A stretch of DNA of 64,000 nucleotides from Aplysia californica (taxonomy: Eukaryota): NCBI RefSeq assembly GCF_000002075.1, contig NW_004797772.1, forward strand, positions 389,381 through 453,380, read 5' to 3'. Under the pieces are notes generated by a model. The model was not told the DNA's origin. It made no database searches and saw only the letters and a program-made list of their open reading frames with translations. The position numbers and the translations under genes were made by a program. Numbering within the stretch: position 1 is the stretch's first letter; each line of letters starts with the position of its first letter. Below are positions 8,501 to 55,377 of the stretch, one piece after another.

Positions 8501-11500
8501 TATATTGCTATGTATGTGTACATAATATAATGATATATTTTATACGAAATATGACATGGCTCATACAGTGACAAACACACTATTATTGAACTTTTGGATG
8601 TTCTGCCCCTTTTATTATCCAGGCCAACCAGAGTGGTCTTACGTCTCAAGCAGTGATCATTGAGATTGCTTGACATACTTAGTCTACTTGCATTTTCTGA
8701 TTCCTTGACCACATGTTTCTGCGCATGTTTTACTAGTTATGTGTTTGCAATTGACAATGGTATGAGATTTGTTTCTTTAAAGATATGACATTAATTTGTT
8801 CTCTGTGCAAATTTCTCATGGTGTAAAAGAGGTGGTTTTTGTTTAGTGTGAGTATGATCTACAGTTTGTAAAGGAACCTTTCACGGTCCAAAAAATTCAG
8901 TGAGAGAAAAAAGGCTGGAAATTAAGGATCAGATTCTGCAAGATTTACTCATTATCTGTTTGCAAGTGGTATGAGATTTATTTCTGTAAAAAAAAAATTT
9001 TTTAATGACGAATACATTTTTTCTCTATGCACATTTTTCATCATACAAAAAGAGGTGGTTCTGATTAGTTTGACTATGATCTGCAGGTTGTGAGGGAACT
9101 TGTGAAGGAAACCAACAAATTCAGAATTTTGGCCCTCAGTGCAACTCCAGGCAGTGATCTCAAGGTGAGTGGGTTCTTTTTAAGACTGTAGAAGTCAATC
9201 ATTTCATTTGCCTCTATTTACCCTGATATTGAGAAAAGGCCTCCAAAAGAGCTCTCCTTTAGTTTAATTTAGAAAGAGTTTAACGGCGCTGGCAACTGCA
9301 GAAGGTGATGTGAACGCGGGAAACGCAAGTTGGTTGCATTCACAACAGTTCTCCGGAGGGCTTGGTTTTGGTCAATGATCAGATTAAATTTTTAAAATTT
9401 CACAGTAAAAATCTCAATCTTGAGATGAAAGTTTATATTACATAAAAGTAATAGTATTTACATTTTCATGTCTCTCTTCTTCACCTCCATCCAGCTTTAG
9501 TCCCATATTCCTGAGATCTGCCTCCAGATCTTACTCCTTCAGGGATCTCAGTCTCCCTCTCTTTCTCTTCTCCTGGAGGTTCCAACTAAGGCTTTGTCTT
9601 GTCACGTTGTGGGCTGGCTTCCTGAGTGTGTGAGAAGTTATTACTGGGTCTTTTTGTTGTGAGACGTGCACACAGTATGATGTTCAAAATAAATATTCAA
9701 GCGAAGACTTCATTTGAAACTAAAATTAATTAGAAACTGATCTAATAAGGAGAAAGATTCAAGAGTTAATGTTTTTTGCTAATGGTTGGCCTCCTGTTTA
9801 ACATTGTATATCAAAATACTTTTTAAGAGAGATATTTTCTGGACTGTGATGAGGGAGACACTGGTTTTTAGTAATCTAAAGAGCATTCTTGAACCTAAGA
9901 TAAGATAAGATACATCTTTATTGTCCAGATCCTGGCACATTGGTTTGGTGTTCCACCACGAGTACACACACACACACACACACACTCACACACACACACA
10001 AACACACATGTACACACGTGCACACACATGCACACACAAGTAGGCTTACAATCACATGCATAATATAAATGAGCAGCAATATAAACAATAATAATCGTAA
10101 GCTAGATACACACTCAATGTTATTTTGATGCATGCTCTAAAGTCGTAAGTACACTAAACAAGATGGTTAAGATGGAAGCATTTTGATAGATGATGGTAAA
10201 AATGACCTTCTGTATCTTTCTTTGTTACAGATCAGAAGCATGGGTCTTTTACTTCTGACTGATGTTTTTATTTGAGGGAACAAGGGATGTTTGTTGTCTA
10301 AAAAGATGGAATTAATTTTCTTAGTGCAAGCTGTTATGTACAATTCATCCAAGTAGGGGAATGAAGATGTTGAAATTTTACATGCTTTCCGTATTAGTCG
10401 ATTTAATTTTTCTTTATCTTGTTGTCTTGTGTTCCCGGCCCATGCTGTTATACAAAAATTGATCATACTTTCTCTGGTTGAATGGTAGAACATGGACATC
10501 AATGTTTTATCAACTTTAAAATACTTTAGCTGTCTTAGAAAAAATAGTCTTTTGTTCACTTTTTTTTTGCAGGAGAGAAGTGTGGACACGCCAGTTGAGT
10601 TTGTTGTCTATTGTAACACCCAAATACTTATAGTTTGACACTTGCTCGATGTTTTCACATTTCATTTTGAGTGGCTGCAAGGGCAGTTTCTTTATTCTAA
10701 AATCAACGACAAGTTCTTTTGTTTTTTTTCACATTTAAAAGCAGCTTATGATTTTCACACCATTCAGAAAATTAAGTGCAAAATTCCGGTAAGCGGTTTC
10801 GTTATGGTCAGCCTGAATTAGCCCAATTATAGTTGAATCATCTGCAAATTTTATCAACTTGATGTTACTGTTGTTTATTTGGCAATCGTTCGTGTATAGT
10901 GTGAATAAAACTGGTGACAAAACACATCCTTGAGGGGCCCCTGTATTTGTTGTGATGTATGTCGATGAAGAATGTTTTAATTTTACATACTGGGTTCGGT
11001 TGGGAAGAAAATTGCCTATCCATGATATTAAATTGACGTTAACACCTATGTTTTCTAATTTCTTTAAAAGGATAGCTGGCTGGATAGTATTAAAGGCTGA
11101 CAAAAAATCAACAAACAGGATCCTACAGTATGTTTTAGGCTTGTCTAAGTGTCTATATATGTTGTCAAGAAATAGTAAAATGGCGTCTTCCACACTTCTC
11201 CCATGACGATATGCAAATTGTAGAGGGTCCTGGATGGGTTCTATGTACGTTCGTAGTCTTTTTAGCACAATTTTTTCTAGACATTTTATAACTACCGATG
11301 TTAAGGCTATTGGCCACAGGTCATTCATTTCAGTAATTTTTTCTTTCTTTGGAAGGGGGACGATTTCAGAACATTTCCAAATAGAAGGAATAGCATGTGT
11401 CAACAACGACTGGTTGATAATATAGGTGTAAATAAAACTAAGTTGTGCTGAACACATTTTCAGAATTTTGGGTTGCACACCGTCTGGACCACACGCCTTT

Positions 11501-14500
11501 CTCACATTCAAACGTCCAAACACACATCTAACCTCACGTTCTTCAACAACAACAGGATTATTTTCTTTTGTGTCGGTGTTCACACATGGCGAGTCACACG
11601 GACTGCCTTTGTCAAAACGGGAGAAAAAGGCATTTAGTTTATTTGCATACTCTTCGTTGTCAACACATATGTTTGTTGGTTTATTTTTGTAGCCCACTAT
11701 GGTCTTAAGCCCAGTCCATGTCTCTCTCGAGTTATTTGATTACTTTCTTAATAGCTTTGTCTATGACTTTAAATTCTGTTTTGTTATGGTTTTAAAAAGC
11801 CTTTTTCTTTTTATGAAAACCTGTGTTGTTATCAGAATTCTCATAACTTTTCACCTTCTGGCTTGATCATATCAGAGATGTATGTTGATCTGGAGTGTCT
11901 TCCTCATCGTAATCATACTGTATTGAGAGGGGTGTTTTCATTAGTTTTGTTCACTTTTGTCGCACCTTGTTAAAGAAATTGTAAGTCATTTATTAATTTA
12001 CCAATGCACATTTAACTTTGCATGGCGCTCCTATAGGCCAGTAACCAAACAAAATTTTTTTTTTTTTTTTAAATCTATTCAGTTGCAAAAGTTTATTTGG
12101 GCCCTGTATCAAACACCACTCTTTGGGTGGATTCAGAGGATCACTACAATAGATGTTTTACAGAAACAAAGCCTATAAATTGCCCATTTTGAGACAGCGA
12201 CACCACCTTGCCCCCCTCTTTCGTTGTAAGCTTGTAAATTCCTCCCCAAGACTGTCTGGACGTGTGTCTCAAAAAGTACTTACCGCATGTGTTTAAATGC
12301 ATTTTATAGTCGTGCATTTAAGTGTGGTGTCAATGAAAATTGGTCAATTTCTTAATTTTTTCGGTATGTGCAATGAATTCCCCATTATTATTTGATCCAC
12401 TTTAGTCTAATGTAAAATAAAACAATTCGGAACCTTAGTTTGTAGTGGCCTTCATTAATAGGCTTTTTTTTATCTATGAAGATAAAACAGTGATTTGTTT
12501 TTAGTCTGTTTTAACTGCGGACAGACGGAAGTGAACAAGTTATAATCAAACAGGTGGTTGGAGGGTGCCACTGGTAGGCCCCACTTATTTCCTTTCCCTC
12601 TTGTGTTTTTGTTTGTCTGTCTTACTTTTTCCCTGCTATAAATTACCTTTGATGCATCGATGTGATCTTTTTACTTAAATAAACAAACAAGTGTAAAGCA
12701 CATGAAACTCTCTATATTATATTTGTGAAAGTTCATCACTTTGGCCACCTAAAACTTCCGAACCACTACACTTTCGAAGTTGAAAAAAATAACGGTGGGT
12801 CAGAAACATTTAAAGGGTGCACATTTTTATTGAGGAGTCTGAAGTCACTGTAGTTTAATTTTCAGTTTTCATTAGTTTCGTTTAGATCTAATCTTTGGAA
12901 GTTCCGTCTTCTCAGACGCCATTGTGAACAAGTGAGGCTTCCGTTCACAAGCTGTGCGCACTGTTTCCACAATGACTTGATGATCGACAATTCTTTTAAG
13001 TCCGTTCATTGAACGTGTACCCGGCTAGTATATTATATTTCTCTATTGTACAATGCCATACAATATTCCATGCCAGGCTTATCATATCATTCCACGCCAC
13101 GCCATATCCTACCTTATTTTTCCATGCCTACCCCACCATACCATACCATGTCTATCTGATCAGGCTGTCCAGCAAATGATGAACAACTTACTGATCAGCC
13201 ACATCGAACTCCGGTCTGAGGACTCTTTCGACATCAAACCCTACACCCATGAGAGGAAGATAGAGAAGGTGGTGGTGCCACTGGGGCAGGAGTTGTCGGC
13301 CATCAGACTGCAGTATATTCAGGTCTTGTCTTTTTGTTTTAGTGAAAGTTTTATGGCACCTGCAATACTAAGGTCATATTAGTGCTAAAGATTAGAAGTG
13401 TTACAAGAGAGTAACAAACACACAAAAAAAGGAGAGATCAGGGCCATAGATGTTTGACAGGAAAGAAGGAGCTAACCACACTAGAGCACCTGCCAACCAC
13501 CCAGGGTTTTGTCTGTCCTTTTCCTCATCCTAACAAATTGATCTTCATCCAGTTAGTAATAATGTTGTTGAAGAAATCTGCAGAAATGACTTCATGATAT
13601 AGATAGAAGGATGAAAGTATCTAAGTGCTGGATCAAAAATAACCAGAACAAATTCAGTAACAACAAGAACATCAATAATGGTGTTCTTCAGCTTTTTTTC
13701 ACACTTCATATTTATAAACATACTTCAAGTTGTAAAAAACAGGTTGATTATTCTCTCTGTTTCTTTTCCTGGGCCCCCTTGTTCTATTCTTTTTTCAGTC
13801 ATTGGCGCTGCTTATTTGCATTCTGTTAATCAGAGAAAGGATTGCTATGCTACTGAACAAAAAATGAAAATGAAATTATTGAAAATGAATCTCTCCCTAA
13901 AAATCTTGGTTGTCTGTAGTAATGTACATTATACTGCTTACTAAGCCTGAAACATTCATTAGTGAAAGGACATTTAATAATAAGATCTTAAAGATTGTTC
14001 TGTTTTAAAGCAGCATATATGCTCCAAGTGTCAAGTCAGCTGGTCATCAGTACCTCATTTGCTGACTTCTATTGCTATTCTTTATGTTCTTATCCTTACT
14101 CAAAAACTTTAAATTAGCTTTGACACCAGAGAACATTGTATTGGACTCTTTGAGGGTTAAATAACTCTCTTGGGTTGAAATGGGTGTTACACTCAAGCTA
14201 TACCTTTGGGTGTATGTCCTGCTTTATGCCTATATGCTTCACCTTGACTTCAGCTTATATGTTATACTTGGTTTCTTAGTTCTCTCGCATGAAGGCCGCT
14301 ATGACTATGTTACAGGTGATGACAATGGTAGTGAAGCGATTGATACAAATCCGGGTCATCTACAACAGAGAAGCAACGAAATTGTCCAAGTTTCTTATTC
14401 TGAAAGCACGGGATGAATTCAGGCAGAATCCACCTGGAAGATTATCGGTAAAACACCCACAAAATGGATTGTACACATTTGTTATGTTTTCAGCTTAGAT

Positions 14501-42600: not shown

Positions 42601-45600
42601 GGCAAGCGCCTGATTTCACAACAGTGCCTCATGTATCTATTTCTATTGAGTTAAAATTTGAGAGGTAACTCATTTGTCAGCATGCCTCACAACCATCTTT
42701 TGTGCCAGTCTGTTGAATGAGGAATGAGTGCCTGGTCTATTGAAGAGTGTATACTTGTACCCGTTCAGTGGGGAGCCCACCTTTTGACATGATATATTGT
42801 TCCAGTTTTTCGATGTAATTATTGCTTTTCCTCTTGAAATTCAGATGTTGTCCTAGTGGTTTCACTAGAATGATCTACCTACACAGTCTTAATGCAAAAG
42901 AACACGTCCTTATTTACTGTTTAACCCTCACTACTGCATTTTTAACGGGGAGGGGGGTTCTTAATTGTATGACACAGTGTGGTGAATAGAGATATAGTGC
43001 GTGTTAGTTATAATAGGTACTTGAATATGGAGTTACATTTGTATTTCTTTCTCCTTCCGTATCAGATTTTCCCAGTGTAAACAACCTTAGTGAGGTCACA
43101 AAATCTATTTACTCATGAAAAATTTTTAAAACCCTGTGTATAATATGAACAATACCCACAGGATGGCAATCCAGGACCTTTTAAGTTGATTTTTTGGGGG
43201 TTATTATTGCAACTTCTGTTCTGTAGCCTTGTAGTTATGATACTGGACTAGCAACCTCAAGGTTGTGGGTTTGAGTCCCAAGTTTTAAAAAATTGGCTTC
43301 CTTCAAATGCTTACAGTGATTGCTTATTTTATTAAAAATGTTCTGTTTCAGACACACTCAGCTGTGAGTGGAAAGAAAAGCTCATTTGTTCTCTCCGACA
43401 TTGAGGAAGATGATGATGATGATTTTGAAGGTGAGAAACTTCATTCTTAGAAGTAAAGATAAGGTAATATAATACTTTATTATATCAGAGGGACATTTTT
43501 CATGGCTGTACAGGACTGTAAAAACATATGCAGGTATACGTAAAAAATTGTAATTATAGAATTCAATATGAAAAGAGAAGTAAAGCTGACAAAATGTAAA
43601 TATCAGGTCAGATGCATCATTCAACCACATGCTGGAATTTGAGTACAAGACCTTTAGAGTTATATAGATACATACTCTAAGGAGCAATACACGTCTATGC
43701 TTATTCTGACAATAACCTTATGCTAGATGGTAAAAAACTTCTCTTATATCTTTCTTTCTTTGTTTTTAGAGGTACATATCTGCCGCTGCGTGTATTGTTA
43801 GTTAATGCTCAAACATAAATCTCTTATAGAGTGCAGGAGACAGAGCAATAAACAACCTTCAAAGAATTTTGTGTTTGCCTAGAGAAAGGTTCCAGTTGTC
43901 GGAAATTTTGGATATTAGATAGGGACATATTTTTATCGCAAATTCAATGCTGAACGCTCTGATTTCAACATTTTTCAAATGTTTTGAGTAGTTTTAAAGA
44001 TGTGCCACATTTTGTAACAGAGTGTAAAAACAGGAGGAAAACCTAATTTTTAACCTTTAGTGAAGAACATGTTGCAAAAATAAATGATAAAAAAAATTTA
44101 GTCTTAACATATTATAATATCCTTTTAATATGTTATTGATAAATGATTTAATGTGTGTTTTCTGATGGAACTAAATATTTGACCAGGTACTACTTTTTGG
44201 CCTTTTTACTCCTTTGCTGAAAAATAGCTTCGCCGACAACTTGGCCCTTTCTCCAGGCACACACACAAATGCTTTATATTAATAATAATAATAATAAATA
44301 AATAGCATTTGTATAGCGCATATCCCCGCTCAACTGCAGGCTCTATGCGCTTTACACTATATTATTACCCCAGCAGACCATGGAACACTCCGAAACATTC
44401 TCAGCTTCCCAGGAAGCACACAGTTCAAGCAGCTGATTAAGCGCTCAAACACTGACAAACTAACAAGATCTTTCGCTGTCTATAGCCGAGTACCCATTCC
44501 CACCTGGGTGAAGTGAGGAAAATTCGTGTAAAGTGCCTTTCCCAAGGACACAACGTCCGGCCCCTGACGGGATTCAAACCCACGACCTTACGGTTGCGAG
44601 TCCGAGAGCCTAATGAGACTACAGTATTTCACCTTTTTATGTGATTCGTTGGCAAGAGGTGTCACTCACTGTGATGAGCCGACTGATCAGCTCAGCATTT
44701 TCCTTGTCACAGGGATGAGCTGTATCACCAGCTTGACTATATGCCTCTATAAATATTCAAATGGTGCCAGTTCAAACTTTCCAAAATAATATTCATGTTT
44801 TACTAGCCCTGTGCTGTTCTTGTTTGTCTATATTCGTATTTCTCTGCATTACATGACTCTTGTTGGGTTGAGCAACGGAGCATCAATGGACATGTCGGGA
44901 GTGCAGGGATGTTGCTTCCTGAAACAATGAACAATCTTGTGTTGATGTGCTCCTTTTCAACTCAAACAAACTTTCAAAGCACTGAGTATTTCTCAAACAG
45001 ATTTTTTTATTTTCCTGCGTTGAGAGGATTGAAAATACTTTAATGCAAGAAAAATCCTGAGAAAATATGATGAAATTGAAATTAAATGTGTTCTCATTTT
45101 TGTGTTGTCAGCACAGTTGCATGTTATTACTGATACGNNNNNNNNNNNNNNNNNNNNNNNNNNNNNNNNNNNNNNNNNNNNNNNNNNNNNNNNNNNNNNN
45201 NNNNNNNNNNNNNNNNNNNNNNNNNNNNNNNNNNNNNNNNNNNNNNNNNNNNNNNNNNNNNNNNNNNNNNNNNNNNNNNNNNNNNNNNNNNNNNNNNNNN
45301 NNNNNNNNNNNNNNNNNNNNNNNNNNNNNNNNNNNNNNNNNNNNNNNNNNNNNNNGTGTGTATATTTCTCGTTGATAAAGTTTAGTAAGGCACGCATAAA
45401 ATGAGGTAAGATGAAAATGAATACACCCATTAGTTGTTTTTTTTAATTGAAAATACACTTTCAGCAACTTCTGCTACACAAAAGGTCAACCTGCACCATT
45501 GCACTAATATGCAAACACATTTATGCACTCTTCATTAGTCTACATCAATTTGAAAAGGAGGTATATATGGTTGCAGCCAGTCTGATGATAGAGTCAGACA

Positions 45601-48600
45601 AATTTGTGACCGGCTTACTTGAGCCTTGTTCAACATTGGGTTTCCATCTTGCGTACATGTATAATACATTACATTCATTCACAACAAAACATTTAAGTAA
45701 TACAATGCATTAGTGAATACAGTCTAGAATACAGTTTGATTTTCCAAACAAATCCTTTTAAGTAAATATCCCATCAGAATTTATTTCATGCCTTATAATG
45801 TGTGTGTGTATCTTTCCTGTTGACAAAGTTCAGTAAGGCACACATAAAATGAGGTAAGATAAAAATGAATACACCCATTAGTTTTTAAAATAATTGAGAA
45901 TATACTTTCAGCAACTTCTGCAACACAAAAGGTCAACCTGCAACATTGCACCAATATGCAAACACATTTATGCACTCTTCATTAGTCTACATCAATTTGA
46001 GAAGGAGGTACATATGGTTGCAGCCAGTCTGATAGATACAGCTAGACAAATTTGAGACCGGCTTACTTGAGCCTTGTTTAACATTGGGTTTCCATCTTAC
46101 ATACATTTATAATACATTCATTCACAACAAAACATTTAAGTAATACAATGCATTTGCGAATACAGTCTAGAGTACAGTCTGATTTTCCAAACAAATCCTT
46201 TTAAGTAAATATCCCATCAGAATTTATTTCATGCCTTATAATGTGTGTGTGTATCTTTCCTGTTGACAAAGTTCAGTAAGGCACACATAAAATGAGGTAA
46301 AATAAAAATTAATACTCCCATTAGTAAAAAAAAAATTGAGAATATACTTTCAGCAACTTCTGCAACACAAAAGGTCAACCTGCAACATTGCACCAATATG
46401 CAAACACATTTATGCACTCTTCATTAGTCTACATCAATTTGAGAAGCAGGTACATATGGTTGCAGCCAGTCTGATAGATAGAGCCAGACAAATTTGAGAC
46501 CGGCTTACTTGAGCCTTGTTCAACAATGGGTTTCCATCTTACATAATCTGGACTGTATACATGTTTAATACATTCATTCACAACAAAACAAATTTAGTAA
46601 TACATTGCATTAGCGAATACAGTCTAGAATACGGTCTGATTTTCCAAACAAATCCTTTTAAGCATATATCCCATCGGCATATATTTGACACGTTCTAATG
46701 TAATAATATGTAACATATATTAAGGCAGCATATTCCAACAAAAGAATTGTTATTGGAACAAATTTATTGTCGTATACAGACTACATATCCAAGATCGTAA
46801 TATTGAGCATCTACGGGAATAATGAATAAGAAAAAGAAGATGGGCAGACTGGAACATATCTTTATTGTGAATAACGATCTAAGACAAAAAAAACAGAAAT
46901 ATGTCAAAAGGAGTTTCAAACTGATACAAAGTGTGTTTTAAAAAAACCAATTCCTTTTCAGATGATAATTCACAATGTAATAAAATGGATAGGTGGTAGA
47001 TGCTCTCCCTTGTTCATTTTTGCTCTTTCTGCAGCGTTACTCAGTATCACTGTTGTCCCAATATGCTTGTGGTTGGTTGGCGGGTGCTCTGGTGTGGTTT
47101 GCTCCTTCTTTCCTATCAAACATCTGTCGTCCTTATCTTTCTTCCCTCTTTTTTTTTAGGTGTGTGTTTCTCTATTGTAAAGCCTCTTAGTAAGTCGGTG
47201 GTTGGTGGGTGCTCTGGTGTGGTTTGCTTCTTCTTCATTACTAAGAAACATCTATCGTCCTTATCTCCCCTCCTTCTTTTTTGTGTTTGTTACTCCCTTG
47301 TAACACCTCTAATCTTCGGCACTTATATGACCTTATTGTGTTGCAAGTGCCGTAAAACTCTTAGGAAACCCCCTCCCCCCAAACCTCTGATCTTCGCCAT
47401 TTACATGACCTAGTTGTGTGGCAAGTGCCTTAAGACGCTTACTAAAACAAAATTAAAAAAACAACTATTATGCTGCCTTGTAAGATATGGTCATTCTCTT
47501 TTTAACAGTGGATGGTTGGAAGGTAGGCCTACTGCCGGTAGAAATTCTTTTCTGTCCCTCAGTTGCTTCTGTCCAACCGTCTTATGTTTTTTTCCCAGCA
47601 TTAAATTAACACTATTATGTCGATGTGCTTCTCTTTACTCAGACAATGAAATAATCTTGAATTAATAGAAAAATAAATAGCATAAATGATAAGAACTGAC
47701 CTGCTGCTAACTCTAACTCAGAAACGATATTAGAAGAAAGGGTAACCGAGTCGAATAGCTAGATTCTGCATTATTGTTTTCCTCATTACTCAGAAATATC
47801 TGCTGACCTGTACTACAACTGTATCTTTATATTCTAAACTGTCATTCTTTTCTTTAAATTTGGTCGGTGAAATACATGCTTGCCGATTGAAACCCATCTT
47901 TTTTTTATGCTTAAGTTTACATATGTTTTAAACTAAATTTGCTGCAAAAAAGCAGGGAATAGGCCTATGAATTCTAAGAGTAAAATGCATGACACTGTTT
48001 GAGTAAAGAAAAGCACATTGACACTATAATGTCATTTAGTGCGGGGGAAAAAGATAAGATTAGATAATACATTATTATCCCAGAGTGAAATTTTTCTTGG
48101 CTGTACAGGACCGTAAAAACACATGCAGGTATACATAAAAATTTAAACTATATATTACTCTCGTTAATAGTCAATGTGAAAAGAGAAGTAAAGCTGACAA
48201 AAAGTACATATCACATCAGATGCATCATTCAACCAAATGCAGAAATTTAATTACAAGACATTTAGAGTTATATAGATACATACACATTGATGCTTATTCT
48301 TACAATAGCCTTATGTTAGATGGTAAAACACTTCTTTTATGTCTTTCTTCCTTTCTTTTTAGAGGTACATATCTGCCCCTGCGTGATCTTACAATTTGCG
48401 TGGAAAAGGGGTGTGATGGGTCGTTTATAATGCTTTGTATCTTTTTTATACTTGTGGTGTTATATATTTCATCAATTCTAGTAAGCATGAAAGACAGACT
48501 TAAAAGGGTAGAACCTACCAGTTGCACCCTCCAAGCACCCACCATGACACCATGTTAGATTTCTGTGAGAACGGATATCTTTTTGATCTATTACAGAACC

Positions 48601-48703
48601 TTATGCCTCGGTGAACACCAGCAAAAATTCGTCCCATTCGAAATCAAAAGCGCCCCTTCGCAGTCGACAGGAGGACTGCAGAGCCAAGAAAAAGAAAACT
48701 GCG
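5472..48703 (+). CDS. FANCM: FANCM, Fanconi anemia group M DEAH-box DNA translocase (multi-exon, 3'-incomplete; 19 coding exons traced)
   Basis: Spliced exons give [26 protein letters not shown] (motif I), [16 protein letters not shown] (motif II), LALSATPG (motif III), [18 protein letters not shown] (motif IV), an MHF-binding-like LAEWMAWQ segment and FDLGF (MM2-like). All introns are GT-AG and the phases join in frame. Confidence 0.95.
6086..6300 (+). CDS. FANCM: FANCM exon 2 (...[23 protein letters not shown])
   Basis: ttcag acceptor, GTATAA donor, Q-motif region. Confidence 0.92.
6595..7002. mobile_element. unclassified MITE of about 400 bp (copies about 42232-42635 and 48940-49368; partial 23271-23400)
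   Basis: Imperfect TIR ATGTGAGGCATCGTGGTGAAATCAGGCG / CGCCTGATTCCACCATGTTGTGACAAAT; recurring internal sequence. Confidence 0.7.
7193..7397 (+). CDS. FANCM: FANCM exon 3 (Walker A, PTGLGKT)
   Basis: [22 protein letters not shown]...EMT; donor GTAAAT. Confidence 0.95.
8205..8377 (+). CDS. FANCM: FANCM exon 4 (DEAH motif)
   Basis: [11 protein letters not shown]...[16 protein letters not shown]; donor GTGAGT. Confidence 0.95.
9087..9164 (+). CDS. FANCM: FANCM exon 5 (motif III, SAT)
   Basis: [26 protein letters not shown]; ctgcag acceptor, GTGAGT donor; too short for the ORF track. Confidence 0.93.
9470..9633 (-). mobile_element. RTE LINE 3' fragment
   Basis: Minus strand reads [27 protein letters not shown]. 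Confidence 0.7.
9896..11760 (-). mobile_element. 5'-truncated Rex1/Babar-like (L2/CR1 group) LINE in a FANCM intron
   Basis: RT ORF 10735-11697 ([41 protein letters not shown]) frameshifted from C-terminal ORF 10167-10589 ([10 protein letters not shown]); AATAAA plus (TCTTA)n tail. Confidence 0.88.
13164..13322 (+). CDS. FANCM: FANCM exon 6
   Basis: [40 protein letters not shown]; phase 0/0. Confidence 0.92.
14316..14447 (+). CDS. FANCM: FANCM exon 7 (insertion domain)
   Basis: [11 protein letters not shown]...[18 protein letters not shown]; phase 0/0. Confidence 0.88.
15703..15929 (+). CDS. FANCM: FANCM exon 8
   Basis: [30 protein letters not shown]; donor GTGAGT, phase 2. Confidence 0.92.
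16156..16919. mobile_element. Tc1/mariner-type MITE inserted in a family B copy
   Basis: TIR CAGTAGCCTCCGCCTAAACGCACG / CGTGCATTTAGGCGGAGACTACTG; TA TSD. Confidence 0.88.
17338..17590. mobile_element. MITE (possibly piggyBac-type)
   Basis: TIR CTCTTTAAACCC / GGGTTTAAAGAG, flanked by TCAA and TTAA. Confidence 0.55.
17689..18438. mobile_element. two related MITEs of about 240 bp (third copy at about 21221-21426)
   Basis: TIR TGTGAG.C.TGCTGA.AAAATGA / TCATTTTGTCAGCACGCCTCACA. Confidence 0.6.
18610..18704 (+). CDS. FANCM: FANCM exon 9
   Basis: [16 protein letters not shown]; phase 2 in, phase 1 out. Confidence 0.9.
18915..19629 (-). mobile_element. RTE LINE 3' fragment with (TGA)n tail, containing a nested insert
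   Basis: ORF 19138-19521 [13 protein letters not shown]...[13 protein letters not shown]; TSD TGCTAAATCA at 18905-18914 and 19630-19639. Confidence 0.88.
18999..19033 (-). ncRNA. minimal type I hammerhead ribozyme (Penelope-like)
   Basis: Minus strand GUUC-CUGAUGA-A-GCC-UUAUU-GGC-GAAAC-GUU-GAAC: full catalytic core, stem II, palindromic ACGU stem III, stem I GUUC/GAAC. Confidence 0.75.
19776..20792. mobile_element. Tc1/mariner-type MITE
   Basis: TIR CAGTAGTCTTCGCCTAAGATC / GATCTTCGGCGGAGACTACTG; TA TSD; TAAGATCCC subterminal repeats. Confidence 0.88.
21959..22125 (+). CDS. FANCM: FANCM exon 10 (motif IV)
   Basis: [16 protein letters not shown]...FIGQAS...GYTQKEQLE. Confidence 0.93.
23470..23965 (-). 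mobile_element. RTE LINE 3' fragment
   Basis: Minus strand [34 protein letters not shown]; (TGA)n-like tail. Confidence 0.8.
24550..24802 (+). CDS. FANCM: FANCM exon after helicase motif VI
   Basis: [16 protein letters not shown]...[12 protein letters not shown]...HKMFIT, matching the FANCM post-helicase region. Confidence 0.9.
25131..25483 (+). mobile_element. tRNA-derived SINE family A (other copies about 27448-27905 +, 44281-44615 -, 55378-55720 +, 61770-62105 -)
   Basis: A box TGGCCTAGTGG, B box GGTTCAAATCC, central TGTGTCYTTGGGAAAGGCACTTTAC..ATGGGTACC domain, L2-like tail (GTAAAGCGC..GCGCTATACAAAT) plus (TTA)n. Confidence 0.85.
25871..26004 (+). CDS. FANCM: FANCM exon (start of MHF-binding region)
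   Basis: ctcag acceptor, GTAATT donor, open in the required phase ([13 protein letters not shown]). Confidence 0.8.
26824..27065. repeat. 51-bp AT-rich tandem repeat interrupted by an insert of about 70 bp
   Basis: ATCTCATCTATGAATGTAATATATTTTTCTATGAATAATCTCTTTG repeated. Confidence 0.8.
27190..27340 (+). CDS. FANCM: FANCM exon (MHF1/2-binding region)
   Basis: [22 protein letters not shown] resembles the FANCM LSLSEWxxWQ...VDHS segment; donor GTAAGT. Confidence 0.88.
28517..28681 (+). CDS. FANCM: FANCM exon
   Basis: [16 protein letters not shown]; phase 1/1. Confidence 0.83.
29366..33397 (+). CDS. FANCM: FANCM large central disordered exon (4032 nt)
   Basis: About 1340 open codons, S/E/D/K-rich, containing FDLGF; cacag acceptor, GTGAGG donor, phase 1/1. 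Confidence 0.9.
33935..34160 (+). mobile_element. degenerate RTE (BovB-like) LINE 3' fragment
   Basis: FLGHL...[20 protein letters not shown]. Confidence 0.6.
34340..34452. repeat. (CACT)n microsatellite
   Basis: Direct observation. Confidence 0.9.
35685..36120. repeat. purine-rich minisatellite (GAGAGGAAGGAGTGATA-like)
   Basis: Direct observation. Confidence 0.8.
36017..38962. repeat. near-identical direct duplication, period about 1.6 kb
   Basis: 36017-37382 matches 37613-38962 with only scattered substitutions; both copies have a gap at the same place. Confidence 0.9.
39270..39750 (+). mobile_element. SINE family C copy
   Basis: Aligns along its length with 62945-63410. Confidence 0.8.
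39778..39861 (+). CDS. FANCM: probable FANCM exon ([16 protein letters not shown])
   Basis: ttttcag acceptor, GTAAGT donor, phase 1/1, acidic then basic like FANCM linker segments. Confidence 0.7.
39982..40224. mobile_element. piggyBac-type MITE
   Basis: TTAA-CCCTATCCGTA ... TACGGATAGGG-TTAA. Confidence 0.8.
41485..41573 (+). CDS. FANCM: probable FANCM exon
   Basis: Pyrimidine tract plus tag, GTAAGT donor, open in the required phase 1/0. Confidence 0.6.
43352..43430 (+). CDS. FANCM: probable FANCM exon ([14 protein letters not shown])
   Basis: tttcag acceptor, GTGAGA donor, phase 0/1. Confidence 0.65.
43455..43790 (-). mobile_element. Rex/Babar-like LINE 3' end fragment
   Basis: Clearly similar to 48052-48520 (ggctgtacaggac.gtaaaaaca...agaggtacatatctgcc). 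Confidence 0.7.
43870..44265. mobile_element. unclassified MITE
   Basis: Imperfect TIR TGCCTAGAGAAAGGTTCCAGTTGTCGG / CCGACAACTTGGCCCTTTCTCCAGGCA. Confidence 0.6.
44281..44615 (-). mobile_element. SINE family A copy
   Basis: Reverse complement aligns to 25131-25483. Confidence 0.85.
45356..46690. repeat. 436-bp tandem repeat, three copies, continuing into the upstream gap
   Basis: Matching blocks at 45793 and 46229 (offset 436). Confidence 0.9.
48052..48520 (-). mobile_element. Rex/Babar-like LINE 3' end fragment
   Basis: [12 protein letters not shown]...[10 protein letters not shown] resembles the C-terminus of the 10167-10589 ORF; (TCTTA)-like tail. Confidence 0.75.
48597..48703 (+). CDS. 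FANCM: probable FANCM exon (last visible; ends RAKKKKTA)
   Basis: ttacag acceptor, GTATGT donor, phase 1/0, no stop codon, so the gene continues. Confidence 0.6.
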
Positions 48704-50540: not shown

Positions 50541-51401
50541 GCCATAATATGATAATATATATCTTTAGCAAAATGGTTCTTATTAACAGATTCTTTAAAA
50601 TGTAAAGTGACATAAAAGTGAAGTCACATAACTTGATAAGGTTGGTCCAGTATGGCCTGTCTGGTGAAATGGCATTAACAGCAATAATAGCAACATGTGG
50701 ATTATATGATGCAGACGCTTGTAAAAAGCTGTCAAGTTTTTGTAGTGATTGTAGCTACAAGAATAATGTTTCATCGTCCTAGAAGAATACTGGTAATTAT
50801 GCTGACATTTCCAGAAGGCAGATATGGTTGTTTGTAGTGGGAATGCTGTGGAATGTTGTTCATCCTCACAGCTGTGTTATCGATTAGATGCAGTCTTCAA
50901 AAATATTTTATCTGATTTGCTACCAAGGGGTTGTGGATTTGGGTCCTGATGGGCTGGAGGGGGGGGGGGAACTTTGTAGCTGTCTCCTCTCTCTCCGCCC
51001 TGGCGCTGACTGTATACCAATTTCTCATCATCTGCATGAGAATGGGGTTTGGGGGAGTTGGGGGTGGGGGTGAATTTTCACACCTGCTCTGTCCATCTGT
51101 TCTGGAGATAATCTAGTGTGTCATCATCATCAATGTACCGCTTCTCGTTACAGGCATGTCAACAGTCTGTGGTGGTTTTGCGTAACATTTTTTCAGGATG
51201 CACTGCATCACTCCTAAATAGGTCTGCAGTTTTGCTTTGATATAGTTCTGTCTGTTACGAAAATATGCAGTGTGCTTCTTGGCTGCTTGTGAAGCCATGA
51301 GCATCAACTTTTCCATTGCTGTATGGTGTCACAACAGAATCCACAAAACCTGTGGAAAACTTAGAGATCTTGGAGATATGTAGACTCCTGTAGTGACATT
51401 T

Positions 51402-51403
<2 letters not shown>

Positions 51404-51442
<39 letters not shown>
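51404..51442 (-). other. 39-nt poly(A) tract 117 nt downstream of the YTH ORF stop
   Basis: T39 on the + strand; variant signal AATGAA about 25 nt upstream on the - strand. Confidence 0.6.
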
Positions 51443-51448
<6 letters not shown>

Positions 51449-51559
51449 AGAGGATACAGGCACTGAATTCATTATGGTTGGTAAGCTACTCGGTAAAATT
51501 CAAAACACAATCAAATATCAATGCCAAACTTAATCTTTTACGGTCTTGAGGCATTTTCA

Positions 51560-53356
51560 TTACCAGTAAGGAGTAAACAAGCAACCAGGTTCTAGCACAT
51601 AAATTGGATTGCGAGGAGGACAGTATGGTGCGAGTGGTTGAGGTACGGGCACAAATGCAGGCCCTTCTTGGATTTGGTTGCCTCTGTAGTACATTTGACC
51701 TGTATTAGCATTCTGATTATGTCTCCAGGAGTTGTCTATTCTCCTCAGATCTTCACCAGTATTGCAGTAGTATGAATTCAAAGGGAGCCCTATGTGTTTC
51801 TCTCTCTCCTCTTGCATGTCGTAATAGTCAAAATGGTCCAAAATGGAATCGGCGTATTGGAAGCTGTGAATGATACACATCATCTCTTGGCCAGGCTCGG
51901 TATGCACTTCCTGTGCATCATAAGCTGCCATCACTGGTTTGAGTTCATTGCTATCCAAACATATTATCAGGTGATTCAGCATATGGTTTGGTACGTTCTT
52001 CACATAATGCCATTTGACCTGAAACATACCGTAGAACCTGCGGCCCGGAGTCCAGACAGTGGCGTTCTTTGTGTAGTCAATGTATGACATCATTTGAGCA
52101 ATGCCGCAGAAATGTTTGCTCCCTGTGACGGAGTAGAAGAGGTACAGGGGACCCTTTCCCTCCTGTTCACGGAATGCTGTGTCCACAGTTTGATTCCCTG
52201 TGATCGTCGAGCACCAGATTCCGTACTTGATAGAGCGATGAATATTTTCCGCTGTATTTGACTTCATGACAAAGTAGCGGGCTGACTTCAGGTCCAGATG
52301 GAATGCAGCAGGGTTGAAGGCATTGAAAGATTCCATCTGTTTTGAAACAGAGGCAGAGAGATACGCTTCTGGGTTATCTCTTCCAACTCTGTTCGTTGGT
52401 GCTGGGAAAATGCTGACCGGCCCAGCACCTCCGATATTGCAGCTGTCGTAGTGCATAGGAAGTCCTCTGTGGTTCTTTCTCTCCTGCTCCTGCATGTCGT
52501 AGTAGTCAAAGTCATCCAAAATGGAAATGGCGTGTTGGAAGCTGTGAATGATATTCGTCATCACATGGGCTTGCTCGGTATACACTTCCTGTGCTTCATA
52601 GGCTGCCGTCACTGGCTTGAGTTCATTGTTATCCAAACATATTATCAAGTGATTCAGCGTATGGTTTGGTACGTTCTTCACATAATGCCATTTGACCTGA
52701 AACATACCGTAGAACCTTTGGCCGGGATTCCAGACAGTGGCGTTCTTTGTGTAGTCAACATATGACATCATTTGAGCAATGCCGCAGAAATGTTTGCTCC
52801 CTGTGACGGAGTAGAAGAGGTACACGGGACCCTTTCCCTCCTGCTCACGGAATGCTGTGTCCACAGTTTGATTCCCTGTGATCGTCGAGCACCAGATTCC
52901 GTACTTGATAGAGCGATGAATACTTTCCTCTGTATTTGACTTCATGACAAAGTAGCGGGCTGACTTCAGGTCCAGATTGAATTCTGCAGGGTTGAAGGCA
53001 TTGAAAGATTTCATCTGTTTTGAAACAGAGGCAGAGAGACACGCTTCTGGGTTATCACCTCCGCCTCTGTTCGTTATTGGTGAAGTGATGATTGCCCCAA
53101 CACCTATATTAGCCTCACAACTCTTATCAGAATCTACTTCACCTTTCAGACATATTGCACAGCATAAGGAGTTTCCATCGTCACTACTGCTTCTCATGTC
53201 ATCGATGCAGCCGAATCTAGAGGGTTCTGATGGCTGGTCTGGATATTCTTGAGATACTGTCGAGAGAGGTTTGCAGTGATCGTTGTCGTCCTCCAAGATG
53301 TATATGTCAGTACCTTTGGCTTTGCAGAGACTTTGCGCAGCCCCTAAACTGTTCAT
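51560..53356 (-). CDS. YTHDF-derived protein with two tandem YTH (m6A-binding) domains, 598 aa, uninterrupted ORF
   Basis: Two copies of RYFVMKS..IHRSIKYGIWCST..GKGPxYLFYSVTGSKHFCGIAQM..VKWHYVKNVPN..KPV..QEV..SILDxFDYY, the YTHDF-type YTH signature, at about 52538-52960 and 51860-52282. Confidence 0.9.
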   Translation of the reverse strand: MNSLGAAQSLCKAKGTDIYILEDDNDHCKPLSTVSQEYPDQPSEPSRFGCIDDMRSSSDDGNSLCCAICLKGEVDSDKSCEANIGVGAIITSPITNRGGGDNPEACLSASVSKQMKSFNAFNPAEFNLDLKSARYFVMKSNTEESIHRSIKYGIWCSTITGNQTVDTAFREQEGKGPVYLFYSVTGSKHFCGIAQMMSYVDYTKNATVWNPGQRFYGMFQVKWHYVKNVPNHTLNHLIICLDNNELKPVTAAYEAQEVYTEQAHVMTNIIHSFQHAISILDDFDYYDMQEQERKNHRGLPMHYDSCNIGGAGPVSIFPAPTNRVGRDNPEAYLSASVSKQMESFNAFNPAAFHLDLKSARYFVMKSNTAENIHRSIKYGIWCSTITGNQTVDTAFREQEGKGPLYLFYSVTGSKHFCGIAQMMSYIDYTKNATVWTPGRRFYGMFQVKWHYVKNVPNHMLNHLIICLDSNELKPVMAAYDAQEVHTEPGQEMMCIIHSFQYADSILDHFDYYDMQEEREKHIGLPLNSYYCNTGEDLRRIDNSWRHNQNANTGQMYYRGNQIQEGPAFVPVPQPLAPYCPPRNPIYVLEPGCLFTPYW

Positions 53357-54465
53357 GAGCTGCAGATGTGAGGTCTTTTAGCTCTTAGTTGAGTTGTACG
53401 CTGGCGTGACTCTTGAAGCGCTGGTACCCCTGGCATGTCAGTGAACTGCAGCTCCGAGTCTTCTTGCTTTTCTGTGAATGGAGGTTGTGTTTGATGCCCG
53501 CAGAGAATATGCTTGAGGCGAGGTTGTGTCTGGTGCCCAGAGTGAATGTCCCTGAGCCGAGGTAGTTTGTGGTGCCAGTTCCTTAGAATAAGAACCTGCT
53601 TGAGACTGGATCGTTTGCGAGGCCATATGGTTTCAAGTATGTCTCTGTGCCAGAACTGCTTCCATGGTCTTTCGTGTTTACTGACAAGTGCTATCCAACA
53701 TAATCCTGCCCCTAGGCGATGACCCTCTTTGCCGCTGCCTATCGCCTCAGACAGGGACAAATACTGAGAGTGTGGTAGCAAAGGCAACATGAAAGTGATT
53801 TTTTTACTCCTGAGATAACTTTGTATCTTGGACACTCTGTTACTGTCCAGTGTCTCAGACCTCCTGTCATTGTACGCTGTCTCAAATCCAGTGTTACTGG
53901 ATGATGTCTCAGACGCCGTGCTACTGTTTGAGGTTACAAACTCTGTGTTAATGTTTGATGTTTTAAGCCACCTGTTACTGTCTGGATTTTCAAAATCTCT
54001 GTTACTGTTTGGTGTATCAAACTCCCTGTTACTGTTACTGTCAGACATATCAAACCGCCTGTTACTGTTCAGTGTATCAAACTCCCTGTTACTGTTTGGT
54101 TTATCACACTCCCGGTAACTGTTACTGCTCTGCATATTAAACCCTCTATTACTGTCACTGTCCAATGTGTCAAACCACTTGTTACTGTTACTGTCCGGCA
54201 GTTGCCGCCCCTCTGATCCCTTGACACAACCCGACTTCTCAGATTGTCCAGCAGCATGACTCATCTCTGTCCCTGTGAAACGGTCCAACATTTCCGGCTC
54301 ATATCGCTCAGAGTTTCTGAATCCATTCGTTTCTCCTTCACACCCGAAGCCTCCATACCTCTGAAGAGGTTGGTACGAAACTTCCTGTGCCCCATGGCCG
54401 TTGACAGTTACCATCTGCCCCGTCCACTCCTCGCCGTCAGCTGCTGGAGACAAAAACTGCTCCAT
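53353..54465 (-). CDS. hypothetical 370-aa ORF with Ser/Asn-rich tandem repeats, overlapping the YTH ORF start (ATGA)
   Basis: 1113 nt without a stop; NSNREFDT-like repeats; no recognisable domain; may be untranslated or a frameshifted N-terminus. Confidence 0.35.
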   Translation of the reverse strand: MEQFLSPAADGEEWTGQMVTVNGHGAQEVSYQPLQRYGGFGCEGETNGFRNSERYEPEMLDRFTGTEMSHAAGQSEKSGCVKGSEGRQLPDSNSNKWFDTLDSDSNRGFNMQSSNSYRECDKPNSNREFDTLNSNRRFDMSDSNSNREFDTPNSNRDFENPDSNRWLKTSNINTEFVTSNSSTASETSSSNTGFETAYNDRRSETLDSNRVSKIQSYLRSKKITFMLPLLPHSQYLSLSEAIGSGKEGHRLGAGLCWIALVSKHERPWKQFWHRDILETIWPRKRSSLKQVLILRNWHHKLPRLRDIHSGHQTQPRLKHILCGHQTQPPFTEKQEDSELQFTDMPGVPALQESRQRTTQLRAKRPHICSS

Positions 54466-55377
54466 TTCGTTCCGTCTGTACCTCGTTCTTGGTCTCAGTA
54501 TTTGGGTCAGATTCAGTGCTGCCGAAGTATTTATGATTGGAGTAACACGTTTGGGGAATACCTTCAGAGAGTGTTGTTGACGTTGTTGCCCTTCTTGACG
54601 TTTTTGTCCTTCTCTCCATCTTTTGTTTCTTTGTGCATCTAGTTTTTTCTCGTTCCGCTTCTTGTTCTTCTTGTTCTTGCTCTTCTTTTTCTTCTTCTTC
54701 TTCTTCTTCTTCTTCTTCTTCTTCTTCTTCTTCTTCTTCTTNNNNNNNNNNNNNNNNNNNNNNNNNNNNNNNNNNNNNNNNNNNNNNNNNNNNNNNNNNN
54801 NNNNNNNNNNNNNNNNNNNNNNNNNNNNNNNNNNNNNNNNNNNNNNNNNNNNNNNNNNNNNNNNNNNNNNNNNNNNNNNNNNNNNNNNNNNNNNNNNNNN
54901 NNNNNNNNNNNNNNNNNNNNNNNNNNNNNNNNNNNNNNNNNNNNNNNNNNNNNNNNNNNNNNNNNNNNNNNNNNNNNNNNNNNNNNNNNNNNNNNNNNNN
55001 NNNNNNNNNNNNNNNNNNNNNNNNNNNNNNNNNNNNNNNNNNNTTTTTCAACTGGTCGCGGCGGGCAGCCCCAGATTGTCCTGGGGCCAGGGGCTACGGC
55101 AAGACGACTCTGCCTTTTGGTGCTTCTTACCCCGCTGGCCATCACGAGTGTCCGGGGACAGTTGGAAGCTTCCAGTTCTTGGTCAGAAAGGAGACCGGAA
55201 ACGGGAGAGTTGTTGCCCCATGGAAAAGTGTCCGAGACGCCAACGTTTGAGATTGTCGAGAGTCTCCACGTATATCCTGAAGTAATAAAACAAAAAATAA
55301 AGTCAAAAGTTGCCAGCGCAGTAAAAATTCTTACCAAACTTAAAGGTGTGAAATAAAGGAAGTGGGTGCTGCTAAAT

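What the first reader, a model, noticed from the sequence alone, without database searches (positions are those of the whole stretch)
51860..52960. Rewired m6A pockets that differ between the two YTH copies
Compared by eye with the remembered human YTHDF2 YTH sequence (KSYSEDDIHRSIKYNIWCST..GVWSQDKWKG..NSRDTQEV). The first two cage tryptophans are kept (IWCST, TVW). The third becomes Phe with a one-residue insertion (VWNPGQRFYG / VWTPGRRFYG). KSY becomes KSN, as in YTHDC1. The DF-type Asp that contacts adenine N1 is Ser in copy 1 (TEESIH) but Asn in copy 2 (TAENIH), and Asn is the higher-affinity YTHDC1-type residue. The conserved SRD becomes AYE / AYD, and GNKRL becomes GNQTV, removing basic RNA contacts. 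Inference: the two pockets may differ in affinity or ligand (m6A, other methylated adenines, unmethylated RNA).
Basis: partly seen in the sequence, partly recalled or inferred. Interest (0 to 1): 0.7.

Follow-up and report, generated by a model that had tools for sequence, protein, structure and literature searches.

The report
Decaying double-YTH m6A-reader gene copy
A snail or sea-slug genome carries a fast-evolved spare copy of the RNA-methylation reader gene YTHDF with two binding domains in a row; the altered pockets are real, but stop and frameshift alleles in public data mean the gene is likely decaying rather than a tuned two-pocket reader.

Summary
The residues are as described. ORF 51560-53377(-) holds two DF-type YTH domains made by a 678-bp tandem duplication (92% nt). 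The genome's parent YTHDF is canonical and 96-97% identical to other heterobranch YTH domains; the copies are 55-61% identical to it. Most 'rewiring' is shared by both copies, so it predates the duplication. The cage is probably intact: Phe at the third position occurs in 13 of 262 YTHDF homologues. Two RNA-backbone arginines are lost, which predicts weaker binding. The Ser/Asn difference is one base change, and dN/dS between copies is 0.59 (CI 0.30-1.22). Two of 7 samples also carry a stop (E132*) and frameshifts before YTH1. Expression is not shown. No other convincing tandem DF-type YTH protein appeared in the searches. Verdict: a real and unusual architecture on a lineage-specific, probably retro-derived paralogue that is likely losing function; different ligands per pocket is untested and unsupported.

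The parts
51560..53377 (-). Tandem-YTH ORF P0001 (605 aa stop to stop; 598 aa from ATG 53356, weak context, its ATG overlapping the upstream ORF's TGA)
52544..52960 (-). YTH copy 1 (Ser152 at the N1 contact; cage W162/W216/F222; Tyr260, Glu261)
   Evidence: AlphaFold2 pLDDT 83.6, TM 0.89 to 4RCJ
51869..52282 (-). YTH copy 2 (Asn378 at the N1 contact; cage W388/W442/F448; Tyr486, Asp487)
51782..53075 (-). Tandem duplication, period 678 bp (52457-53075 vs 51782-52397, 569 of 619 identical)
53353..54741 (-). Upstream ORF (462 aa up to the N run; 370 aa from ATG 54465, strong context); likely the diverged N-terminal disordered region of the same gene
   Evidence: (434 open codons vs shuffle maximum 224; colinear global alignment z 3.6-4.2 to 3 of 9 mollusc YTHDFs)
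53368..53369 (.). Polymorphic 1-nt indel: runs X14 and X16 have an extra base that puts the upstream ORF in frame with the YTH ORF; the reference and 6 other runs lack it
52984..52984 (.). Nonsense allele E132* just before YTH1 (runs X13, X15, X14 = 2 of 7 samples, one study)
53027..53300 (.). Further frameshift alleles before YTH1: 2-nt deletion at 53027 (X15), 2-nt insertion behind 53300 (X14)
51764..51764 (.). Nonsense allele C538* after YTH2 (X13, X15; one sample)
53552..53552 (.). 1-nt insertion allele in the upstream ORF (X16)
51404..51442 (-). 39-nt A run about 118 nt after the stop; length-variable, no canonical signal next to it; not counted as retro evidence
55131..55276 (-). Candidate upstream exon (good acceptor, GTAAG donor); motif prediction only, no spliced read
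48597..48703 (+). Exon of the neighbouring FANCM-like gene, in phase with an exon at L007:4679 (window-equivalent 68679); the YTH gene likely lies antisense in that ~20-kb intron
   Evidence: assignment of these two exons to FANCM rests on a recalled motif, not on a database hit (searches gave none)

Best explanation
This is a lineage-specific, probably retro-derived duplicate of YTHDF that diverged fast, doubled its YTH domain by a recent 678-bp tandem duplication, and is now likely decaying under relaxed selection. Shown: canonical parent; about 50-fold longer branch; shared substitutions; segregating null alleles. Inferred order: duplication from the own-lineage parent; long purifying but loosened selection, in which the pocket loop moved to the YTHDC1-like K-S-N-x-x-E-N and two backbone-binding arginines were lost; tandem duplication; Asn-to-Ser drift in copy 1; then frameshift and stop alleles. 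If made, each domain is predicted to fold as YTH and still read m6A in a W/W/F cage, with weaker RNA binding than the parent, copy 2 probably better than copy 1.
For: Parent deviates at 0 of 88 columns conserved in at least 90% of 262 homologues; the copies deviate at 23 and 25. Stem 1.17 vs parent tip 0.022 changes per column. Placed without other long branches the copies join the heterobranch group (96) next to the parent; copy 1 shares a Thr with the parent found in 0 of 262 homologues, and same-residue codons match above chance (59 of 98 vs 38 expected). Parent-copy dN/dS 0.24-0.27 at dS 1.1-1.35 shows past purifying selection; copy-copy 0.59 (0.30-1.22). From ATG 54465 no run's listed variants give a frame that reaches a YTH domain (0 of 8 runs); from ATG 53356 the frame is broken in 3 of 8 runs, 2 of 7 samples. 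Upstream ORF polymorphism: 1 synonymous of 9. The parent has introns after short exons 1 and 2; the copy's alignable N-terminus runs unbroken across the exon 2/3 position. Lys+Arg in the core: 21 in the parent, 12 and 13 in the copies.
Against: The 598-aa frame is intact in 5 of 7 samples. Polymorphism in the YTH ORF leans synonymous (7 of 16, p 0.08; 6 of 12 without four sites that match the other copy, p 0.054), hinting at remaining constraint. All YTH-ORF null alleles come from one study. Contigs show one allele of a heterozygote and may be phase mosaics; one search hid 82 substitution rows and 7 indel rows. N-terminal homology was significant for only 3 of 9 comparators by global alignment and not by local or profile tests, so the retro-origin is only moderately supported.
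Confidence: 0.58

Rival explanations
1. A still-functional bivalent m6A reader: a short isoform (splicing from exon 55276-55131 to an in-phase acceptor at 53359, or start at ATG 53356) uses two weakened domains for avidity on clustered m6A sites, with a stronger Asn pocket and a weaker Ser pocket; null alleles are tolerated because the parent is intact.
For: 598-aa frame intact in 5 of 7 samples; synonymous-leaning polymorphism; cage, Cys and Lys146/Arg141 kept; copy 2 loop matches the genome's own YTHDC1 at 5 of 7 positions by independent codon changes; copy 1 model matches YTHDF1-m6A at TM 0.89.
Against: No splice joint in any laid run; acceptor at 53359 has a poor pyrimidine tract and ATG 53356 a weak context; three independent null changes before YTH1; the short form lacks the disordered effector region.
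Confidence: 0.22
2. The domains were repurposed to another ligand (m1A, unmodified RNA, DNA 6mA) or act as a decoy, and the two pockets differ in ligand.
For: Changes at nearly invariant positions (Arg 261 of 262 to Tyr; Ser 261 of 262 to Ala; Asn 261 of 262 to Thr). An unnamed Logan protein (P0179) shares 12 rare residues including Asp-to-Ser and Trp-to-Phe, which could mean a shared or parallel specialisation.
Against: The methyl-reading tryptophans and the N6-binding Cys position are kept; Phe is a natural cage residue; no excess of amino-acid change between copies; P0179 keeps the Arg-Asp pair and non-heterobranch states, and its grouping with the copies joins long branches.
Confidence: 0.1
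3. The tandem repeat or the broken frame is an assembly error.
For: Near-identical repeats are error-prone; the one two-domain database hit (coconut P0129) looks like such an artefact.
Against: Copies differ by 8% with 26 amino-acid changes in 194 codons; the linker is bridged by contigs in runs of several studies, and the reference state at 53368 is in 6 of 8 runs.
Confidence: 0.02

Closest known systems
YTHDF1/2/3 and invertebrate single-copy YTHDF (PF04146, DF clade)
   Same: Fold (TM 0.89, rmsd 2.1 to 4RCJ); about 50% identity; first two cage Trp, Cys, Lys416- and Arg411-equivalents; likely long disordered N-terminus before the YTH.
   Different: Two YTH domains; third cage Phe with a 1-residue loop insertion; Tyr397 to Asn, Asp401 to Ser/Asn, Arg506 to Tyr, Arg441(DF2) to Thr; N-terminus cut off by a polymorphic frameshift; null alleles.
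YTHDC1
   Same: Asn at the N363 and (copy 2) N367 positions; copy 2 loop matches the genome's own YTHDC1 at 5 of 7 positions.
   Different: Sequence is DF-type (E 1e-55 to DF chains vs 1e-7 to DC1); codons derive from the DF parent; the R475-equivalent is Tyr.
Planarian expanded YTHDF family (bioRxiv 10.1101/2025.03.03.641144, passages read)
   Same: Lineage-specific YTHDF duplication in a lophotrochozoan.
   Different: Those five paralogues keep key residues and act redundantly; no tandem domain is mentioned in the passages read.
Divergent YTHDF-like protein P0179 (unnamed Logan record, 204 aa)
   Same: 12 rare derived residues, including Asp-to-Ser and Trp-to-Phe.
   Different: Single domain, keeps Arg-Asp, carries non-heterobranch states at diagnostic columns; orthology unresolved (AU p 0.063 for copies+parent).

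Membership tests
YTH domain (PF04146) | Profile match above cut-off and YTH alpha/beta fold | tested here: met
   (132 and 131 bits vs cut-off 22.1); copy 1 model pLDDT 83.6, TM 0.89. Copy 2 not modelled usefully.
YTH m6A reader | Two invariant cage Trp plus a third hydrophobic residue | tested here: met
   W162/W216/F222 and W388/W442/F448; third position variable.
YTH m6A reader | Basic RNA-backbone patch (YTHDF2 R411, K416, R441, R527) | tested here: not met
   2 of 4 kept; the other two are Thr and Tyr.
YTH m6A reader | Selective binding of m6A RNA | not testable with these tools
   Needs ITC or fluorescence polarisation.
YTHDF subfamily | Descent from the DF clade | tested here: met
   Best hits are all YTHDF; placed next to the own parent when other long branches are left out.
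YTHDF subfamily | Single C-terminal YTH with Asp at the N1 contact | tested here: not met
   Two domains; Ser/Asn where 259 of 262 homologues have Asp.
YTHDF subfamily | Disordered N-terminal effector region in frame with the YTH | tested here: not met
   Out of frame in the reference and 6 of 8 runs; the two runs with the joining base carry other frameshifts.
YTHDC1 subfamily | DC1-clade sequence | tested here: not met
   the genome has its own intron-containing YTHDC1 on C438.
Processed retrocopy | Loss of parent introns; poly(A) tail and target-site duplication | tested here: inconclusive
   Unbroken ORF across the parent's exon 2/3 position rests on weak N-terminal alignment; the YTH itself lies in one parent exon, so it is uninformative; the A run is length-variable; target-site duplications were not sought.
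Pseudogene | Fixed disabling mutation or no product | tested here: inconclusive
   No single disabling change is fixed across 8 runs; the short frame is intact in 5 of 7 samples; expression not shown.

The most novel reading that the evidence does not exclude
A natural tandem-YTH m6A reader: a cytoplasmic-type YTHDF copy converged on the high-affinity YTHDC1 pocket loop, gave up backbone arginines, and regained grip by doubling the domain, so it reads clustered m6A by avidity with one strong and one weak pocket; a second mollusc-like paralogue (P0179) made parallel pocket changes.
Probability: 0.17. Interest if true: 0.7.

Novelty: new variant of a known kind. Interest (0 to 1): 0.36.

Why it matters
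YTH readers almost always carry one domain, and invertebrate YTHDF is extremely conserved. A natural two-domain version with a near-isogenic Asn/Ser pocket pair is a ready-made test of whether valency can replace RNA-backbone contacts, and of how a DF pocket converges on DC1. If the best reading holds, it is mainly a snapshot of a duplicate gene being lost, which is of modest interest.

Tried and rejected
Expression: no RNA holder is on record. X14, X15 and X16, guessed as RNA, cover the flank about as evenly as the gene and look like DNA; X7 is deeper on 50979-54650 (mostly 15-27) than on unique flank (0-12), a weak hint only, and the locus likely lies in another gene's intron. Three loose ends in X2 first looked like splice joints to 55276-55131; all jump back 1.8-2.0 kb with no GT donor, so I read them as likely jumping-library junctions, though one falls on both predicted splice sites and that stays unexplained. 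Eight X5 differences at 52718-52844 equal copy 2 bases and were dropped as repeat collapse. Gene conversion from YTHDC1: rejected by codons. Orthologue searches found nothing above 60% identity, but the parent itself was also absent from the listed hits (best 97%), so absence says little. Single-sequence fold of the tandem failed (pLDDT 34); cage geometry could not be measured because no coordinates were available. The protein Atlas held neither query. Local and profile tests of N-terminal homology were not significant. FANCM's C-terminal nuclease domain was not located. No earlier scan findings. The primary YTHDF1 structure paper was not held; affinities come from reviews.

Full report
Observation. 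The minus-strand ORF 51560-53377 encodes 605 aa with two PF04146 stretches at 52544-52960 and 51869-52282. They arise from a tandem duplication of period 678 bp, 569 of 619 bases identical. An AlphaFold2 model of copy 1 built on a 41-row alignment has pLDDT 83.6 and matches the YTHDF1-m6A complex 4RCJ at TM 0.89. The model leans on an alignment of mostly canonical YTHDFs, so it shows compatibility with the fold, not binding.

Parent and origin. The genome holds one canonical YTHDF (C29, 59% identical), intron-containing YTHDC1 and probable YTHDC2 loci, and one distant YTH-like ORF. The parent's YTH is 96-97% identical to those of Bulinus, Lymnaea, Physella and Biomphalaria, so the organism is a heterobranch gastropod. 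Of 88 columns conserved in at least 90% of 262 fetched homologues (263 examined, 1 dropped for short match), the parent deviates at 0, copy 1 at 23 and copy 2 at 25; the median homologue deviates at 1. The stem to the copies is 1.17 changes per column against 0.022 for the parent tip. With other long branches left out the copies fall beside the parent in the heterobranch group (support 96). Copy 1 shares with the parent a Thr seen in 0 of 262 homologues, and codon identity at same-residue sites exceeds chance (59 of 98 vs 38). Parent-copy dN/dS is 0.24-0.27 at dS 1.1-1.35: the duplicate was under purifying selection for a long time, but far looser than the parent.

Pockets. The two methyl-reading Trp and the Cys are kept. 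The third cage residue is Phe, as in 13 of 262 homologues (Tyr in 5); a review gives this position as Trp, Tyr or Leu (PMC6112328, passages and section 5 read). At the N1 contact 259 of 262 have Asp, 1 Ser and 0 Asn. A review table (PMC8016981, passages read) gives YTHDF1 D401N 1.5 uM vs 22 uM wild type, Y397A and W470A no binding, R506A above 200 uM, YTHDC1 R475F 18 and R475A 210 vs 2.0 uM, YTHDF2 R441A 7.35 vs 2.54 uM. Both copies lose the R506 (to Tyr) and R441 (to Thr) equivalents, and core Lys+Arg falls from 21 to 12-13. The inference is retained m6A recognition with weaker RNA grip. Codons suggest the path GAC (Asp) to AAT (Asn) to AGT (Ser), so Asn is likely the pre-duplication state and copy 1 the derived one (parsimony inference). 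Copy 2's loop matches the genome's own YTHDC1 at 5 of 7 positions by independent codon changes, a real convergence. Between copies there are 26 amino-acid differences in 194 codons, dN/dS 0.59 with CI 0.30-1.22: neither constraint nor selection for divergence is shown.

An upstream ORF (53353-54741 up to an N run) overlaps the YTH ORF by 25 nt in another frame. It is far longer than chance (434 codons vs shuffle maximum 224) and aligns end to end with the N-termini of 3 of 9 mollusc YTHDFs at z 3.6-4.2 (0 of 300 shuffles), not significantly with the other 6; local and profile tests were not significant. I read it as the likely diverged N-terminus. Eight runs (7 samples, 6 studies) were laid as contigs. 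X14 and X16 carry an extra base behind 53368 that alone would give one 968-aa frame with both domains, but X14 also carries a 2-nt insertion at 53300 and E132*, and X16 an insertion at 53552; so 0 of 8 runs show the long frame intact. The short 598-aa frame is broken in X13 and X15 (one sample: E132*, C538*, and in X15 a 2-nt deletion at 53027) and X14, and intact in the other 5 samples. Against decay: these nulls come from one study; contigs hide heterozygotes and phase; one search hid 82 substitution and 7 indel rows; visible polymorphism in the YTH ORF is 7 synonymous, 7 missense and 2 nonsense (p 0.08 against a 25% neutral share), against 1 of 9 synonymous upstream.

Context and expression. 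The + strand neighbour is FANCM (helicase exons and MHF-binding domain). In-phase exons at 48597-48703 and 68679 (beyond the window) flank the YTH gene, so it likely sits antisense in a 20-kb intron; assigning those two exons to FANCM rests on a recalled motif. With the parent's introns apparently absent, a retro-origin is likely but not shown. Transcription is not shown (see Tried and rejected).

Comparison and novelty. A two-domain query against 1.84 billion cluster representatives would rank a true tandem protein far above single domains; of the best 150 listed (2155 hits), the top scored 242 bits and is a coconut gene model whose repeat is nearly identical and truncated, probably an artefact; the other two-stretch hit has one YTH. 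Clustering at 50% could hide such a protein. Paper searches for two, tandem, double or duplicated YTH domains, for YTHDF paralogues in molluscs or sea hares and for retrogenes or expansions listed nothing describing a natural tandem-YTH protein; only listings and abstracts were seen except where stated, most subscription papers are not held, and no supplements were read. P0179, an unnamed single-domain protein, shares 12 rare residues with the copies and groups with them (97/95) where long branches meet, but keeps non-heterobranch states and falls elsewhere when placed alone; the copies-plus-parent clade is not rejected (p 0.063). Orthology or parallel change is unresolved.

Verdict. Observation confirmed; interpretation partly supported. 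It works, if at all, like a weakened YTHDF reader; it descends from YTHDF but fails the subfamily's single-domain, Asp-pocket and in-frame N-terminus features. New variant of a known kind, likely decaying (0.58); functional bivalent reader 0.22; changed ligand 0.10. Interest 0.36.

Noticed in passing
window 7181-48703 (+), continuing at L007:4679: FANCM-like gene: DEAD/ResIII exons at 7181-8383, MHF-binding domain at 27142-27549, a very large exon within the 1473-codon frame 29278-33699; the YTH gene likely lies in one of its introns.
   Followed up: partly
L012:1285-2079 (-) = G000:C457:490732-491241: A distant intronless YTH-like ORF (Pfam 57 bits) without DF or DC motifs; a fifth YTH-type locus in this genome besides DF, DC1, probable DC2 and the tandem gene.
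   Followed up: partly
protein P0179 (unnamed Logan record): Divergent single-domain YTHDF-like protein sharing 12 rare substitutions with the copies; orthologue or parallel evolution.
   Followed up: partly
window 53353-53356 (-): The upstream ORF's TGA overlaps the YTH ORF's ATG (ATGA), a stop-start arrangement; probably a by-product of the frameshift, but it could allow re-initiation.
   Followed up: no
protein P0230 (unnamed ENA record): Another divergent YTHDF-like protein with Tyr397-to-Asn and Asp401-to-Ala changes.
   Followed up: no
window 53922-54198 and 53481-53576 (-): Degenerate internal repeats in the upstream ORF encoding Ser/Asn/Arg-rich units and a 13-residue Gln/Pro unit.
   Followed up: no
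window 1208-1960 (-) and 10735-11739 (-): Reverse-transcriptase fragments (PF00078), LINE-like.
   Followed up: no
window 35000-38700 and 45356-46686: Local duplications: near-identical blocks around 36200-36900 and 37800-38500, and three copies of a 442-bp unit.
   Followed up: no
protein P0129 (Cocos nucifera gene model): Database protein with two near-identical YTH blocks, the first truncated; probably an assembly or annotation artefact.
   Followed up: partly
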